14,300 nucleotides of DNA from a virus. The stretch is from UHGV virus genome UHGV-0153413; one strand, 5' to 3'. Shown here one piece after another: positions 9,059 to 11,938 of the stretch. The position numbers and the translations under genes were made by a program. Under the pieces are notes generated by a model that worked only from the letters and a program-made list of their open reading frames with translations, did not search any database and was not told where the DNA came from. Position 1 is the first letter of the stretch. Every line of letters begins with the position of its first letter.

Positions 9059-9126
9059 AGAATACTACAGGTATTCAAAACAATCAATACTCAGGGTATT
9101 TTTAGTTTAAGTACCTTAGCTATTAG
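9059..9126. promoter_or_regulatory. OR region: three operator dyads with divergent pR (toward cro) and pRM (toward cI)
   Basis: Operators gaatactacaggtattc (9060-9076, perfect dyad), aatactcagggtatt (9086-9100) and the weaker aagtaccttagctatta (9109-9125), centres 24-25 bp apart. pR on the minus strand: -35 TTGATT (9087..9082), 17 bp, -10 TATTCT (9064..9059). pRM candidate -10 TATTAG (9121-9126) only 9 nt before the cI ATG with no SD, so cI is probably leaderless as in lambda. Confidence 0.65.
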
Positions 9127-9135
9127 AATTAAGCT

Positions 9136-9852
9136 ATGGAAAATAAAAAATCACTGACGACAGAACAGCTCGAAGACGCTAAGCGGCTTAAGGCTTTGTA
9201 TGAGTCAAAAAAGAAAGAATTGGGAATAACCCAATACTCAATCGCTGATGAACTGGGTATCACCCAAGGAGCGGTAGGGCATTATCTTAATGGCAGAAAC
9301 GCGCTAAACGTTGAGGTTGCATCTGGTTTTGCACGACTGTTGCAAGTCTCAATTGCTGATTTTAGCCAGTCAATTGCTGCCAAGGTTGCAGAACAGGCAG
9401 AAAGCCTTAAGAGCGATGCCAACGTAAGGTATGCAGGGGAATACAGAGCAGGAAAGAGGTATCCGGTGTTAAGCAGTATCCAGGCTGGCTCGTGGTGTGA
9501 AGCATGCGAACCATACACCATTAAAGACATAGATGTTTGGCTTGAGTCTGACGCGCATATTCAAGGTAATGCGTTTTGGCTTAAAGTGGAAGGTGATTCA
9601 ATGACGGCACCGGTTGGGTTAAGCATTCCAGAGGGAACATTCGTTCTTTTCGATACCGGAAGGGAGGCGATCAACGGCAGCTTGGTCATAGCAAAACTTT
9701 CTGACTCTAACGAAGCAACATTCAAGAAGCTGATAATCGACGGCGGAAATAAATACCTCAAGGGACTTAATCCTGCATGGCCTCTCGTGCCAATCAATGG
9801 AAACTGCAAGATTATAGGCGTTGCAATTGAGACAAAACTAAGGCTGGTTTGA
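9136..9852 (+). CDS. cI: CI repressor (HTH-XRE N-domain plus S24 LexA-like autopeptidase C-domain)
   Basis: 238-aa ORF. HTH region QYSIADELGITQGAVGHYLNG, Ala-Gly (SIQAGSW) candidate cleavage site, catalytic Ser in GDSM and Lys in FKKL. Divergent from cro across the operators. Confidence 0.9.
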   Translation: MENKKSLTTEQLEDAKRLKALYESKKKELGITQYSIADELGITQGAVGHYLNGRNALNVEVASGFARLLQVSIADFSQSIAAKVAEQAESLKSDANVRYAGEYRAGKRYPVLSSIQAGSWCEACEPYTIKDIDVWLESDAHIQGNAFWLKVEGDSMTAPVGLSIPEGTFVLFDTGREAINGSLVIAKLSDSNEATFKKLIIDGGNKYLKGLNPAWPLVPINGNCKIIGVAIETKLRLV

Positions 9853-9869
9853 TCACGCAAGGGGCGATT

Positions 9870-10238
9870 ATGGTTGGAACCGCTATAGCAAGCTTTTTTG
9901 GGATGTTGGCAATCTCGACAATTTACGTCTTAGCGCATGCTTTTATTGCGAAATCTCTATCAGAAAAAATAAGCCAGGCTTGGGCGCATAGATCAGCTCG
10001 TTTCATGATTCTTGTGATCATAGCAATACAAGGGATATCTGCATTTATCCTCTATGTATCAAGCTTATACCTATTGTATCAAGGCGCGACATTTACGCCT
10101 TACACCAGTGATTACGGAACTCTATACGATGGTAGTGAAGACATCACTGTGGCTTGGATCGTCTTTGGTTTATCTATGGCCGTGTCTGTTGTAGCAGACA
10201 TCATTAAGGTAATTCTCGTCTTAACCTTCGCTGACTAA
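9870..10238 (+). CDS. Predicted 3-TM membrane protein in the rex position (cotranscribed with cI)
   Basis: ATG 9870 with RBS AAGGGG (a TTG at 9849 overlapping the cI stop is an alternative start). Three hydrophobic helices. Sits between cI and OL/pL, where lambda has rexA-rexB. No recognisable similarity to RexB as I recall it. Confidence 0.6.
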   Translation: MVGTAIASFFGMLAISTIYVLAHAFIAKSLSEKISQAWAHRSARFMILVIIAIQGISAFILYVSSLYLLYQGATFTPYTSDYGTLYDGSEDITVAWIVFGLSMAVSVVADIIKVILVLTFAD

Positions 10239-10323
10239 CCCATAATCCCGGCAGCAATAGCTATCGGGATCCACTTCACATATCCCGCATAAAAATCACT
10301 GAACAAGCAGACAGCGAAAAAAT

Positions 10324-10418
10324 AAATATCCTTTGTATTCATTTGTTTATCATTATTTCATCAAAAATAAATACCTTGGGTATTTACACAATAAAATACC
10401 TACAGTATTCTTTAGCCA
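10324..10418 (+). promoter_or_regulatory. OL operators and pL promoter
   Basis: Operators aaataccttgggtattt (10369-10385) and aaatacctacagtattc (10394-10410) share half-sites with OR; a possible distal site aaatatcctttgtattc (10324-10340). pL: -35 TTTACA (10383-10388), 17 bp, -10 TATTCT (10406-10411). The downstream sequence ATCAGCAGGACGC matches the start of the lambda pL transcript as recalled. Confidence 0.6.
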
Positions 10419-10457
10419 TCAGCAGGACGCTGGAAGCCAAACGGAACAGATTGGCAG

Positions 10458-10498
10458 GCTCTTTAACATTGATGGGATTGTCCCGCCGAAATGCGGGA
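10458..10498 (+). promoter_or_regulatory. nutL (boxA GCTCTTTAA plus boxB hairpin)
   Basis: gctctttaa (10458-10466), 14-nt spacer, boxB tcccgc/cgaaat/gcggga (10481-10498), identical to nutR boxB. Lies about 40 nt downstream of the predicted pL start. Confidence 0.6.
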
Positions 10499-10765
10499 AC
10501 CAAAGAGTAGTTGGCTTTGGGGTGTGGTGAAGCCAGCTAGTCACTGGCAAGTGCTTACCTACTGTTGAGCGGTGAAGCGCTCCCAACGCTAGCAATAGCG
10601 TGGACGAGATGGGGAGCCGCGGGCGATAAGGCCGCCATAACGCGCACGTTGTCGCATGGAAAAATCGCTGGGGTGCCGGTTATACCCCTCCGAATGAGAC
10701 TCAACAAGCTGGAGCTAGACTACCAGCCACCACACCACCAAAGCTAATCATCTGAGGAACAGAAA

Positions 10766-10885
10766 ATGTTAGACATCATGACCAACCCAATTCTCGGTGG
10801 TTTAGTTACCACATTCGCCATCTGCTTCGGTTTCACTATCTGGTCTGAAGTAGATGACTGGATGTGGGAACGCAAAAACAAATAA
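10766..10885 (+). CDS. Small single-TM peptide ORF (39 aa) in the N leader
   Basis: Hand-translated: RBS GAGGAA 8 nt before ATG 10766, MLDIMTNPILGGLVTTFAICFGFTIWSEVDDWMWERKNK, stop TAA 10883-10885. One hydrophobic helix then a charged tail. Below the ORF-track size cut-off. Confidence 0.4.
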   Translation: MLDIMTNPILGGLVTTFAICFGFTIWSEVDDWMWERKNK

Positions 10886-10925
10886 TCATCGACACACAAG
10901 GATGTGCACCTACCCGGAGGTCAAC

Positions 10926-11198
10926 ATGACAGTAGTCATTACATATCTGGCTGACGATAACACCAGAAATCGCCGCAGAGCACGCAGACAGGCTCAACGT
11001 GAACAGGCAATGCAAGAGCAGCGACTGGCGCGAAAAATTGCGCTAAAGCTCTCTGGTTGCGTCAGAGCAGATAAAGCAGCATCACTCGGAAGCCTTCGCT
11101 GCAAGAAGGCAGATGAATGCAGCGGAAGTATTTGCCTGCCAAACGTAGCCATTTACGCGGCAGGCTACCGGAAATCAAAACAACTGACAGCGAGGTAA
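10926..11198 (+). CDS. N: Antiterminator N (arginine-rich motif)
   Basis: ATG 10926 with RBS GGAGG at 5 nt. N-terminus MTVVITYLADDNTRNRRRARRQAQREQ carries an arginine-rich boxB-binding motif like lambda and P22 N. First gene after pL/nutL. The 114-aa track ORF is an upstream extension. Confidence 0.75.
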   Translation: MTVVITYLADDNTRNRRRARRQAQREQAMQEQRLARKIALKLSGCVRADKAASLGSLRCKKADECSGSICLPNVAIYAAGYRKSKQLTAR

Positions 11199-11488: not shown

Positions 11489-11938
11489 ATGGAAGAACAA
11501 GCAAACAAGATTCTCGTAGAACTATTGCAAAAAGCCAGTAATGGAATAGACGCGGCTGTTTCATTTAGCCAGGCACAGATTCCTGATGTTATCCATCAGT
11601 TGCTGCTATGGAATATGGTTGACAGTCTGATTAAAACATTAATAGCCATTCTAACAATCCCACTGGTTTTCTGGTTTATGAAGAAGCAGTGCCAAAGAGT
11701 TGAGATAGGTAAAATCGGTAATGAAGGATATTCATGGGAGAAGGGAAATCCCAAATACAGGCCGACAATGGTTTGGGATAGCAAAGGTGATATTAATCTT
11801 CTTATCATGCCATTGGTTGGAGTTTTGACTCTGTGGGGGATTTTTATTATTGGTGCAGTAACCAATATGACTTGGTTAAAAATTTGGCTGGCCCCAAAGC
11901 TTTACCTTATCGAATATGCAGCATCATTGGTTAAGTAA
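11489..11938 (+). CDS. Hypothetical 149-aa membrane protein (2 predicted TM) in the sieB position
   Basis: RBS AGGTGA 5 nt before ATG 11489. Hydrophobic helices LIKTLIAILTIPLVFWFM and LLIMPLVGVLTLWGIFIIGAV. Followed by a strong terminator. A superinfection-exclusion role is inferred from position only. Confidence 0.6.
   Translation: MEEQANKILVELLQKASNGIDAAVSFSQAQIPDVIHQLLLWNMVDSLIKTLIAILTIPLVFWFMKKQCQRVEIGKIGNEGYSWEKGNPKYRPTMVWDSKGDINLLIMPLVGVLTLWGIFIIGAVTNMTWLKIWLAPKLYLIEYAASLVK

What the first reader, a model, noticed from the sequence alone, without database searches (positions are those of the whole stretch)
9870..10238. Uncharacterised 3-TM membrane protein in the rex slot of the immunity region
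In lambda the interval between cI and OL/pL holds rexA-rexB, the classic prophage-encoded exclusion system expressed in the lysogen. Here it holds a single roughly 122-aa protein with three predicted transmembrane helices and no partner gene. It begins 18 nt after the cI stop (or overlaps it if the TTG start is used), so it should be made from pRM in every lysogen. It has no similarity I can recognise to RexB. A lone membrane protein at this locus is a strong candidate for a new superinfection-exclusion or abortive-infection determinant.
Basis: partly seen in the sequence, partly recalled or inferred. Interest (0 to 1): 0.7.

Follow-up and report, generated by a model that had tools for sequence, protein, structure and literature searches.

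The report
Orphan membrane gene hkaS beside repressor
The ORF is real: it is hkaS, a small inner-membrane protein gene that always follows the phage HK620-type repressor gene, has been annotated "unknown" since 2001, resembles no studied protein, and is a plausible but untested candidate for protecting lysogens against other phages.

Summary
Window 9870-10238 (+) encodes a 122-aa protein with three predicted transmembrane helices. It starts 17 nt after the cI stop and ends about 100 nt before OL/pL, the position that rexA-rexB occupy in lambda.

It is not a new ORF. It is hkaS of coliphage HK620 (99.4% DNA identity, annotated "unknown") and belongs to PHROG 6534 (unknown function).

It is a real gene:
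- All 80 IMG/VR copies are intact.
- The Shine-Dalgarno sequence and ATG are conserved.
- dN/dS is 0.15-0.2, and piN/piS is 0.26 against 0.017 for cI and cro.
- The AlphaFold model has mean pLDDT 92.

It is strictly linked to one repressor lineage: 146 of 146 complete E. coli genomes, 79 of 79 viral contigs, and the Salmonella and Hafnia-type relatives. The carrier phages have different virion types.

The family is tiny. A profile search of 1.84 billion representative proteins found one full-length relative. There is no detectable sequence or profile similarity to RexB, P22 SieA or the window's holin, no Pfam, NCBIfam or PADLOC family, and no significant fold match.

Function remains unproven. 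My best guess (about 0.4) is a lysogen-expressed inner-membrane protein that excludes heterologous phages. This rests on the precedent of the slot (RexAB, Hex, Stk, BstA) and of small membrane exclusion proteins. It is a good experimental candidate but not a surprise.

The parts
9136..9852 (+). cI repressor (238 aa), first gene of the pRM/pRE operon to which hkaS belongs
   Evidence: Pfam Peptidase_S24 (5e-24) and HTH_3 (8e-10). It is 99.4% identical at DNA level to HK620 cI.
9859..9864 (+). Shine-Dalgarno-like AAGGGG, 5 nt before the hkaS ATG
   Evidence: Read from the sequence. An equivalent AAGGA lies 7-8 nt before the ATG in the Salmonella, Hafnia-type and metagenome relatives.
9870..10238 (+). 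hkaS: 122-aa inner-membrane protein with 3 predicted TM helices, predicted N-out/C-in. Cytoplasmic loop 28-44, periplasmic loop 71-93, invariant D110/K113, and C-terminal tail 115-122 (ILVLTFAD)
   Evidence: pLDDT 92.3. phrog_6534, E 2e-77. HK620 hkaS AAK28867.1. Intact in 80 of 80 viral contigs, piN/piS 0.256. dN/dS 0.15-0.2. Conservation by region.
9964..9969 (+). A6 run inside codons 32-34 of hkaS, the site of a 1-nt deletion in phage HF4s
   Evidence: Alignment of the window with HF4s.
10245..10270 (+). Hairpin (7-bp G+C-rich stem) 7 nt after the hkaS stop, with no T run. Possibly a transcript-stabilising or terminator element
   Evidence: RNA fold of 10225-10345, z = -3.0. A hairpin of different sequence sits at the same place in L007 and L009, and an imperfect one in L003. 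Its role is inferred.
10320..10350 (+). tIMM, the terminator of the cI transcript as annotated in HK620, overlapping OL3
   Evidence: Transferred from the HK620 annotation (window coordinate = L001 coordinate + 6599). The terminator scan did not call it.
10347..10418 (+). OL3-OL2-OL1 operators and pL, the downstream boundary of the slot
   Evidence: HK620 annotation. A promoter-like site lies at 10383-10411. The operator sequence AAAAATAAATA(T/C)C is kept in the distant relatives.
9060..9125 (.). OR1-OR3 with pR and pRM, the presumed source of the cI-hkaS transcript in the lysogen
   Evidence: Coordinates transferred from the HK620 annotation. OR3 (9109-9125) and part of OR2 lie inside the aligned stretch. 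OR1 is extrapolated. Promoter activity was not tested.

Best explanation
Well supported (about 0.9). hkaS is a real protein-coding gene and the second, last cistron of the cI (pRM/pRE) operon of the HK620-type immunity module. It encodes a 122-aa polytopic inner-membrane protein with three TM helices and predicted N-out/C-in topology. It has a basic cytoplasmic loop carrying a short amphipathic helix, an acidic periplasmic loop with a small beta-hairpin, and an invariant D110/K113 pair followed by the nearly invariant C-terminal tail ILVLTFAD at the cytoplasmic end of TM3.

Inferred. Because it is co-transcribed with cI, it should be made whenever repressor is made, both during establishment of lysogeny and in the lysogen.

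Most likely function (inferred, about 0.4). It is a lysogenic-conversion "moron" that protects the lysogen from heteroimmune phages by acting in the inner membrane. The most probable mechanism is interference with phage genome translocation, either directly on the incoming channel or through a host inner-membrane protein that phages use for entry. This is how other small polytopic membrane exclusion proteins work. A RexA/RexB-style sensor-plus-channel suicide system is less likely.
For: It is a real gene:
- 80 of 80 IMG/VR copies are intact at 122 aa.
- dN/dS is 0.15-0.2 between lineages whose synonymous sites are near saturation.
- The Shine-Dalgarno sequence and ATG are conserved.
- AlphaFold2 gives pLDDT 92.3 from only 7 sequences.

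Operon membership:
- The gap after cI is 17-19 nt in 79 of 79 viral contigs and 17-20 nt in the Salmonella, Hafnia-type and metagenome relatives.
- No promoter-like or terminator-like site lies between cI and hkaS.
- HK620 annotators place tIMM after hkaS.

Long-term retention with the repressor:
- cI and hkaS each occur in the same number of complete E. coli genomes, 146 genomes and 147 places.
- The pair stays together while cI diverges to 85-88% and HkaS to 50-60% identity.

Independence from virion type:
- The module is carried by HK620 and HF4s (Lederbergvirus), HK630 (Lambdavirus) and Stx2c-converting phages.

Precedent for the slot:
- RexAB, 434 Hex and 933W Stk are made from pRM and exclude other phages (PMC3564112).
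- BstA lies downstream of cI, and the cI-N interval is described as a mosaic hotspot (PMC8585504).
- A 58%-identical cI in Erwinia phage Midgardsormr38 has a P63C-domain gene in the slot, and 434 has hex.

Sequence pattern:
- The periplasmic loop is the most variable part (17% invariant positions) and adjoins a balanced T93V94/S93M94 dimorphism, 44 to 36. This fits a surface that meets changing phage components.
- The protein has no soluble domain that could sense infection in the cytoplasm, which argues against a self-contained abortive-infection sensor.
Against: - There are no functional data of any kind. No paper in the searched library mentions HkaS together with HK620.
- There is no detectable sequence or profile similarity to SieA, RexB or the window's holin (hhalign probabilities 0.3%, 0.7% and 0.2%), to any PADLOC defence model, or to any Pfam or NCBIfam family above threshold.
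- Fold searches return only generic helical bundles.
- The strongest conservation is on the cytoplasmic side: 89% of positions 114-122 are invariant, against 53% for the cytoplasmic loop. That would equally fit binding to a cytoplasmic or membrane host factor unrelated to phage entry.
- The variable periplasmic loop may simply be less constrained. piN/piS of 0.26 indicates relaxed purifying selection, not positive selection.
- The slot also hosts a gene whose main shown role is not exclusion (Hex).
- The plaque-forming phage HF4s carries a frameshifted hkaS as deposited, so the gene is dispensable for phage growth and lysogeny.
- Expression from pRM is inferred only.
Confidence: 0.4

Rival explanations
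1. HkaS is an abortive-infection membrane effector. It is a dormant pore or channel, RexB-like or holin-like in logic, that is opened by some infection cue and collapses membrane potential. The cue would be sensed by HkaS itself or by a host or other prophage factor. The infected lysogen dies or arrests before the invader replicates.
For: - It occupies the slot of rexA-rexB and bstA, both abortive-infection systems.
- Its 3-TM N-out/C-in topology is the same as that of class I holins (own knowledge; topology).
- An invariant intramembrane D110/K113 pair plus conserved polar residues Q54, S65 and S106 could line an oligomeric pore.
Against: - There is no adjacent sensor gene like rexA.
- The cytoplasmic parts total about 17 loop residues plus a short C-terminal tail, which is little to sense with.
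- There is no detectable similarity to RexB or to the window's own holin.
- There is no charged C-terminal tail as holins have.
- There is no PADLOC match.
Confidence: 0.17
2. HkaS tunes the lysis-lysogeny switch rather than excluding other phages. It would act through a conserved host partner at the cytoplasmic face of the membrane, for example the FtsH/HflKC protease that controls CII and CIII. Alternatively it could stabilise the cognate repressor, as 434 Hex does. Either way it would affect establishment or stability of lysogeny.
For: - Linkage to one cI lineage is strict over deep divergence.
- The gene would be expressed from pRE with cI during establishment (inference from position).
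- The strongest conservation is on the cytoplasm-facing loop, LSxKIxQxWxHxxARF with a short helix at 31-38, and on the C-terminal ILVLTFAD tail.
- Precedent: Hex, in the same slot, blocks RecA-stimulated cleavage of its own repressor and lowers spontaneous induction 30-fold (PMC3564112).
- RexB has been reported to inhibit ClpXP-dependent degradation (own knowledge).
Against: - Linkage can be explained by mere adjacency (17 nt), with no homology available for recombination in between.
- No similarity to Hex, which has no predicted TM segment by the hydropathy scan.
- No similarity to CIII or to any FtsH modulator was detected.
- HF4s, with a frameshifted hkaS as deposited, still forms stable lysogens.
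Confidence: 0.15
3. HkaS is a lysogenic-conversion factor for host physiology unrelated to phages. For example, it could be a small regulatory subunit or inhibitor of a host membrane transporter or enzyme, or a membrane-stress or colonisation factor.
For: - The gene is maintained intact and under purifying selection in prophages of E. coli, Salmonella and Hafnia-type hosts.
- Its GC content is lower than that of its neighbours (41.5% against 45.5% for cI), as is typical of morons.
- Small polytopic proteins often act as regulators of transporters (own knowledge).
- There is a weak sub-threshold hit to the C-terminal TM region of cation P-type ATPases: 21.5 bits against a cut-off of 27.3.
Against: - The ATPase hit is below threshold, is seen in only 3 of 7 family members, and is probably a hydrophobic composition effect.
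- No other family, fold or context clue supports this reading.
- Occupants of this slot with known function act on phages or on the switch.
Confidence: 0.13
4. The ORF is not functional. It is a chance or decaying reading frame in the spacer between cI and OL.
For: - Some database entries are frameshifted: P0005, P0007 and P0009 and HF4s.
- It has no known domain.
Against: - 80 of 80 viral-contig copies are intact and of equal length.
- piN/piS is 0.26 and dN/dS is 0.15-0.2.
- The start signals are conserved.
- 46 positions are invariant across lineages only 50-60% identical.
- The structure prediction is confident.
Confidence: 0.02

Closest known systems
HkaS of coliphage HK620 (AAK28867.1) / PHROG 6534
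   Same: It is the same gene. DNA identity is 99.4% over cI-hkaS-OL. The protein differs from the HK620 protein at one residue, V63 for G63. The PHROG match is full length, E 2e-77.
   Different: Nothing of substance. Both entries are annotated as unknown function, so membership gives no mechanism.
Lambda RexB (with RexA)
   Same: Both sit in the same genomic slot between cI and OL, are co-transcribed with cI, and are small polytopic inner-membrane proteins.
   Different: There is no detectable sequence or profile similarity (BLASTP E 1.5; hhalign probability 0.7%). HkaS has three TM helices. RexB shows three hydrophobic stretches in my scan, the last long enough for two helices, and is reported to have four. 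HkaS has no RexA-like sensor gene next to it.
P22 SieA
   Same: Both are prophage-expressed inner-membrane proteins with three predicted TM domains and no partner. SieA alone blocks DNA injection (PMC10883804). This is the best functional analogy.
   Different: There is no detectable similarity (hhalign probability 0.3%). SieA is 162-164 aa with a long soluble loop. It sits next to the ejection-protein genes under its own promoter, not behind the repressor. It targets phages of its own virion type, whereas hkaS travels with the repressor across virion types.
434 Hex, 933W Stk and BTP1 BstA (other occupants of the cI-pL slot)
   Same: All are accessory genes transcribed with the repressor in the lysogen, are non-essential, and act on superinfecting phages or on repressor stability (HK022 Nun from own knowledge).
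   Different: None has a membrane-protein architecture like that of HkaS. Hex shows no hydrophobic segment above the scan threshold and has a signal-peptide-like N-terminus. The literature read here describes Stk as a kinase and BstA as localising to sites of phage DNA replication. None is homologous to HkaS.
HK97 gp15 and T4 Imm (small inner-membrane exclusion proteins)
   Same: They are small membrane proteins that block genome entry at the inner membrane without a partner. This comes from my own knowledge; the gp15 paper is cited in PMC11364771 but could not be read.
   Different: They were not compared by sequence here. They lie at different genomic locations, with fewer TM helices.

Membership tests
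HkaS / PHROG 6534 | Full-length sequence match to the family profile | tested here: met
   phrog_6534 E 2.1e-77, residues 1-122 against profile positions 1-122 of 122. DNA is 99.4% identical to HK620 cI-hkaS.
HkaS / PHROG 6534 | Position directly downstream of an HK620-type cI and upstream of OL/pL | tested here: met
   Window; 79 of 79 viral contigs; relatives at 50-81% identity; 146 E. coli genomes for both genes.
Lambda RexB | Sequence or profile homology to RexB | tested here: not met
   BLASTP best E 1.5; hhalign probability 0.7%; no Pfam or PADLOC Rex model matched.
Lambda RexB | Adjacent rexA-like sensor gene | tested here: not met
   There is no other conserved ORF between cI and OL.
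Lambda RexB | Location between cI and OL in the pRM operon | tested here: met
   for location. Transcription itself is not testable with these tools.
Lambda RexB | Exclusion of T4rII and membrane depolarisation on activation | not testable with these tools
   Needs plating and membrane-potential assays.
P22 SieA-type superinfection exclusion | Sequence homology to one of the SieA types | tested here: not met
   hhalign probability 0.3% against P22 SieA. The other two SieA types were not compared.
P22 SieA-type superinfection exclusion | Inner-membrane protein with about three TM domains, sufficient alone | tested here: inconclusive
   Three TM helices are predicted. Localisation and sufficiency were not tested.
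P22 SieA-type superinfection exclusion | Blocks DNA injection of superinfecting phage | not testable with these tools
   Needs K+ efflux, DNA entry or transduction assays.
Class I holin | 3 TM helices, N-out/C-in | tested here: met
   Prediction only.
Class I holin | Charged cytoplasmic C-terminal tail, location in the lysis cassette, and homology to S-type holins | tested here: not met
   The C-terminus is hydrophobic (ILVLTFAD). The gene lies in the immunity operon. hhalign probability against the window's holin (1440-1763) is 0.2%.
Known anti-phage defence systems (PADLOC-DB v2) | Match to any defence-protein model | tested here: not met
   0 families at E <= 1.
pRM-operon accessory gene (moron) of lambdoid phages | Non-essential gene co-transcribed with the repressor and expressed in the lysogen | tested here: inconclusive
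   The position and the lack of intervening signals fit. Dispensability is suggested by the frameshifted copy in phage HF4s. Expression was not tested.

The most novel reading that the evidence does not exclude
HkaS founds a new family of stand-alone, sensor-less inner-membrane immunity proteins that co-evolve with one repressor lineage. In this reading its invariant cytoplasmic loop and C-terminal ILVLTFAD tail dock onto a conserved host membrane machine, such as an entry portal or the FtsH/HflKC protease. Its fast-evolving periplasmic loop would set phage specificity. It would be a single 122-aa protein doing what RexA/RexB need two proteins for, or coupling exclusion to control of the switch.
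Probability: 0.2. Interest if true: 0.65.

Novelty: new member of a known kind. Interest (0 to 1): 0.4.

Why it matters
The interval between the repressor gene and pL is one of the few places in a lambdoid prophage that is transcribed in every lysogen. Each occupant studied so far has turned out to be biologically interesting: RexAB, Nun, Hex, Stk and BstA. hkaS is present in about 2.7% of complete E. coli genomes (146 of 5426). It also occurs in well-used laboratory phages (HK620, HK630, mEpX2) and in Stx2c-converting phages. It has no homologue of known function, is small, and is easy to clone. A phage-exclusion phenotype would add a new sequence family to the known membrane exclusion proteins. 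It would also give a tractable one-gene model, with natural alleles, a balanced two-residue polymorphism and a natural frameshift mutant already available. A switch-tuning phenotype would extend the Hex precedent to a membrane protein. If neither is found, the gene is an ordinary orphan moron.

Tried and rejected
1. Homology to RexB, P22 SieA and the window's S holin: none.

2. Pfam, NCBIfam, PADLOC and PDB sequence searches: only a sub-threshold Cation_ATPase_C hit (21.5 bits against 27.3). It appears in 3 of 7 members and was rejected as a hydrophobic composition effect.

4. Search for distant relatives. The word-indexed search gave 12 clusters, the most distant at 52% identity. The exhaustive profile search of 1.84 billion representatives gave 1 full-length hit and 1 fragment. 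The scan of species-representative genomes gave none.

5. TM1 as a cleavable signal peptide (A22-H23-A24): rejected. There is no basic n-region, the motif is absent in relatives, and cleavage would put the basic loop in the periplasm.

6. A partner gene on the minus strand (36-aa ORF at about 10236-10346, annotated in HF4s as g00039): rejected. It is not conserved, L009 has an early stop, and its ATG lies in the operator region.

7. Using published Hf4s lysogen phenotypes as a test of HkaS. The lysogen is sensitive to G7C and phiKT, and DT57C grows once the O-antigen is lost. This was rejected because the deposited HF4s hkaS has a 1-nt deletion in the A6 run.

8. Positive selection. piN/piS of 0.26 and dN/dS of 0.15-0.2 show relaxed purifying selection, not adaptive evolution. 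My first 9-sequence sample was chosen for hkaS diversity and is biased.

9. Literature. No paper holds HkaS together with HK620. The plain search for \"HkaS\" returned only herbarium codes.

Full report
**What is there**

The window is a lambdoid phage early region read in the opposite direction to the lambda map. In order it carries:
- the lysis genes Rz/R/S, then Q, nin genes, a DnaB-type helicase and an O-like initiator, cII and cro, all on the minus strand;
- then cI (9136-9852), the ORF in question (9870-10238), OL/pL, nutL and N on the plus strand.

The ORF runs from ATG to TAA and encodes 122 aa. It starts 17 nt after the TGA of cI. AAGGGG lies 5 nt before the ATG. The upstream in-frame TTG at 9849 is unlikely to be the start, for two reasons. 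Relatives keep AAGGA 7-8 nt before the same ATG. The Salmonella relatives have an in-frame TAA immediately before it.

Hydropathy gives three membrane segments, at about 3-27, 45-70 and 94-120. Loop 28-44 has four basic residues and loop 71-93 has four acidic ones, so the predicted topology is N-out/C-in. AlphaFold2 on a 7-sequence alignment gives a confident three-helix bundle. Mean pLDDT is 92.3 and pTM 0.79. The model has a short helix at 31-38 in the cytoplasmic loop and a small hairpin in the periplasmic loop.

**Identity**

The stretch 9100-10538 is 99.4% identical to coliphage HK620. There the ORF is annotated as hkaS, "unknown", between cI and tIMM/OL3. The same module is in HK630 ("HkaS protein"), mEpX2, HK140, HF4s, phi296/phi367 and some Stx2c-converting phages. 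The protein matches PHROG 6534, which has unknown function, over its full length with E 2e-77.

NCBI annotates it as a hypothetical protein in all 25 E. coli genome rows listed. No paper in the searched library mentions HkaS together with HK620. So the ORF is known as an annotation but uncharacterised.

**Is it a real gene?**

Yes.
- All 80 copies fetched from IMG/VR are intact and of equal length.
- In those copies piS is similar for cro, cI and hkaS (0.020, 0.025 and 0.028). piN/piS is 0.017, 0.017 and 0.256 respectively.
- There are 24 protein alleles of HkaS against 7 of cI.
- Between deep lineages dN/dS is 0.15-0.2 where dS can be estimated, and dN is 4-5 times that of cI.

The gene is thus under purifying selection, but much more relaxed than the repressor genes beside it. 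That is typical of an accessory gene. I see no evidence for positive selection.

A few database entries are frameshifted. The plaque-forming, lysogenising phage HF4s has a 1-nt deletion in an A6 run at codons 32-34, as deposited. The gene is therefore dispensable for the phage life cycle. It also means the published Hf4s lysogen phenotypes cannot be used for or against an exclusion role.

**Distribution and linkage**

The family is very small.
- The word-indexed search of 5.8 billion clusters gave 12 clusters, the most distant at 52% identity. They come from E. coli, Salmonella Mbandaka, Hafnia paralvei and metagenomes.
- An exhaustive profile search of 1.84 billion representatives gave one full-length hit and one fragment.
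- None of 185,579 species-representative genomes has a relative.

In complete E. coli genomes cI and hkaS give identical counts: 146 genomes and 147 places, all chromosomal. In IMG/VR, cI lies 17-19 nt upstream in all 79 contigs that extend that far. The divergent relatives have the same order: cro, then cI, then hkaS, then OL/N. Where cI is 85-88% identical, HkaS is only 50-60% identical.

The pair has therefore stayed together through long divergence. Meanwhile the flanking replication, N and recombination genes are shuffled, and the carrier virions differ: Lederbergvirus for HK620 and HF4s, Lambdavirus for HK630. Related repressors have other things in the slot:
- hex in phage 434 (cI 52% identical);
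- a P63C-domain gene in Erwinia phage Midgardsormr38 (58%);
- nothing in P22, nor in an E. coli prophage with a P22-type repressor.

**Comparison with known proteins**

There is no detectable sequence or profile similarity to the proteins one would think of first.
- Lambda RexB: BLASTP E 1.5, hhalign probability 0.7%.
- P22 SieA: 0.3%.
- The window's own S holin: 0.2%.
- Any PDB chain by sequence: none.
- Any PADLOC or NCBIfam model: none.

The only Pfam signal is a sub-threshold match to the C-terminal membrane region of cation ATPases. It is seen in 3 of 7 members, and I regard it as a composition effect. Structure searches gave nothing specific.

**Pattern of conservation**

I compared five lineages that are 50-60% identical overall. 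The share of invariant positions is:

| Region | Residues | Invariant positions |
|---|---|---|
| C-terminal tail | 114-122 | 89% (eight of nine; positions 115-122 read ILVLTFAD) |
| Cytoplasmic loop | 28-44 | 53% (LSxKIxQxWxHxxARF) |
| TM2 | 45-70 | 42% |
| TM1 | 1-27 | 33% |
| TM3 | 94-113 | 25% |
| Periplasmic loop | 71-93 | 17% |

D110 and K113, three residues apart in TM3, are invariant. At the periplasmic end of TM3 there is a two-residue dimorphism, T93V94 against S93M94, at 44 to 36 in the viral contigs. So the cytoplasmic face is the constrained one and the periplasmic face the variable one.

**How it most likely works**

Shown:
- It is a real gene encoding a polytopic membrane protein (by prediction).
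- It lies immediately behind cI with no intervening promoter-like or terminator-like signal.
- It is strictly linked to one repressor lineage.

Inferred:
- It is transcribed from pRM in lysogens and from pRE during establishment.

Function is by analogy only. Genes made from pRM with the repressor include RexAB, 434 Hex and 933W Stk, all of which exclude other phages (PMC3564112). BstA, an abortive-infection protein, lies in the same place, and the cI-N interval is described as a hotspot of mosaic diversity (PMC8585504). P22 SieA shows that a lone inner-membrane protein with three predicted TM domains can block DNA injection (PMC10883804).

HkaS has no soluble domain to sense infection and no sensor partner. 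I therefore rank a block of genome entry at the inner membrane first (about 0.4). Next come an abortive-infection pore (about 0.17), tuning of the lysis-lysogeny switch through a host membrane partner or the repressor (about 0.15), and a phage-unrelated host effect (about 0.13). The Hex precedent and the cytoplasm-facing conservation keep the switch rival alive. None of these can be decided with sequence tools.

**Verdict**

A specialist would not be surprised to find a moron here. The value lies in a well-defined, cheap experiment on a gene present in standard laboratory phages and in 2.7% of complete E. coli genomes.

**Side observations**

- The N leader between nutL and N contains a long hairpin whose base is conserved. 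Its next stem segment changes by compensatory substitutions between phages, and its interior ranges from about 75 nt in HK620 to about 235 nt in this window. It has no Rfam match.
- N starts at 10926, as in HK620, not at the ORF-list start 10854.
- Between the hairpin and N the window has a 39-aa single-TM ORF with no counterpart in the phage collection.

Noticed in passing
window 10510-10747 (+): This is a G+C-rich, roughly 238-nt element in the N leader between nutL and N. It is closed by a 20-bp inverted repeat (GTTGGCTTTGGGGTGTGGTG ... CACCACACCACCAAAGCTAA). The RNA fold gives -108.5 kcal/mol, z = -5.4. It has no Rfam match even at E <= 1. HK620 and other hkaS phages have shorter or different interiors, but the same stem base and compensatory changes in the next stem segment: GTGACG/CGTCAC, ATTGGATG/CATCCAAT and GTGTGGTG/CACCACAC. 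It is probably a structured N-leader hairpin like the RNase III site of the lambda N leader (own knowledge). The 235-nt unit occurs with sharp ends in 60 of 5426 E. coli genomes, unannotated in 14 of the 15 rows listed.
   Followed up: partly
window 10766-10885 (+): A 39-aa ORF with one predicted TM helix (MLDIMTNPILGGLVTTFAICFGFTIWSEVDDWMWERKNK) lies between the leader hairpin and N. The stretch 10748-10930 has no megablast match in 50,697 phage records. The corresponding stretch carries no annotation in E. coli EN-1077, which shares the upstream leader element and its flanks; its sequence there was not compared. It has no family match.
   Followed up: partly
window 10926-11198 (+): The N antiterminator most likely starts at ATG 10926 (ATGACAGTAGTC..., identical to the HK620 N start). 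It does not start at 10854, which is the first start codon of the mechanical ORF.
   Followed up: yes
window 11489-11938 (+): A 149-aa protein with two predicted TM segments lies in the pL operon downstream of N. It matches PHROG 3054 (unknown function), E 9e-64, with no Pfam, PADLOC or NCBIfam match. It sits roughly where sieB lies in lambda, P22 and HK620, but on the pL strand.
   Followed up: no
L020 (phage HF4s MT833387.1) 1071-1438; window 9964-9969: HF4s hkaS has a 1-nt deletion in the A6 run of codons 32-34. The ORF is broken, and the record annotates only a 78-aa C-terminal piece plus a 36-aa minus-strand ORF. This is either a natural null allele or a homopolymer sequencing error. Other frameshifted versions exist in protein databases (P0005, P0007, P0009).
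   Followed up: partly
window 10146-10151 (codons 93-94 of hkaS); loci L021-L100: There is a balanced two-residue polymorphism at the periplasmic end of TM3. T93-V94 occurs in 44 viral contigs and S93-M94 in about 35, while the adjacent cI protein is almost invariant. The window's allele also carries V63 where all 80 contigs have G63, and V20, which only 2 of 80 share.
   Followed up: partly
L102 (phage 434, OL657227.1) 2409-2813: The 434 Hex protein ("repressor protection protein", 134 aa), which occupies the same slot, begins with a signal-peptide-like hydrophobic N-terminus (MIRIAALLSILLTTSANS...). It has no hydrophobic segment above the scan threshold. This sits oddly with a cytoplasmic action on RecA-stimulated repressor cleavage (PMC3564112).
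   Followed up: no
L104 (E. coli EN-1077, NZ_CP159209.1) 737-2294: The same 235-nt N-leader element, with 100% identical flanks, is joined there to a different, P22-c2-like repressor with an empty cI-OL slot. The mosaic junction between immunity module and N module therefore lies between pL/nutL and this element.
   Followed up: no
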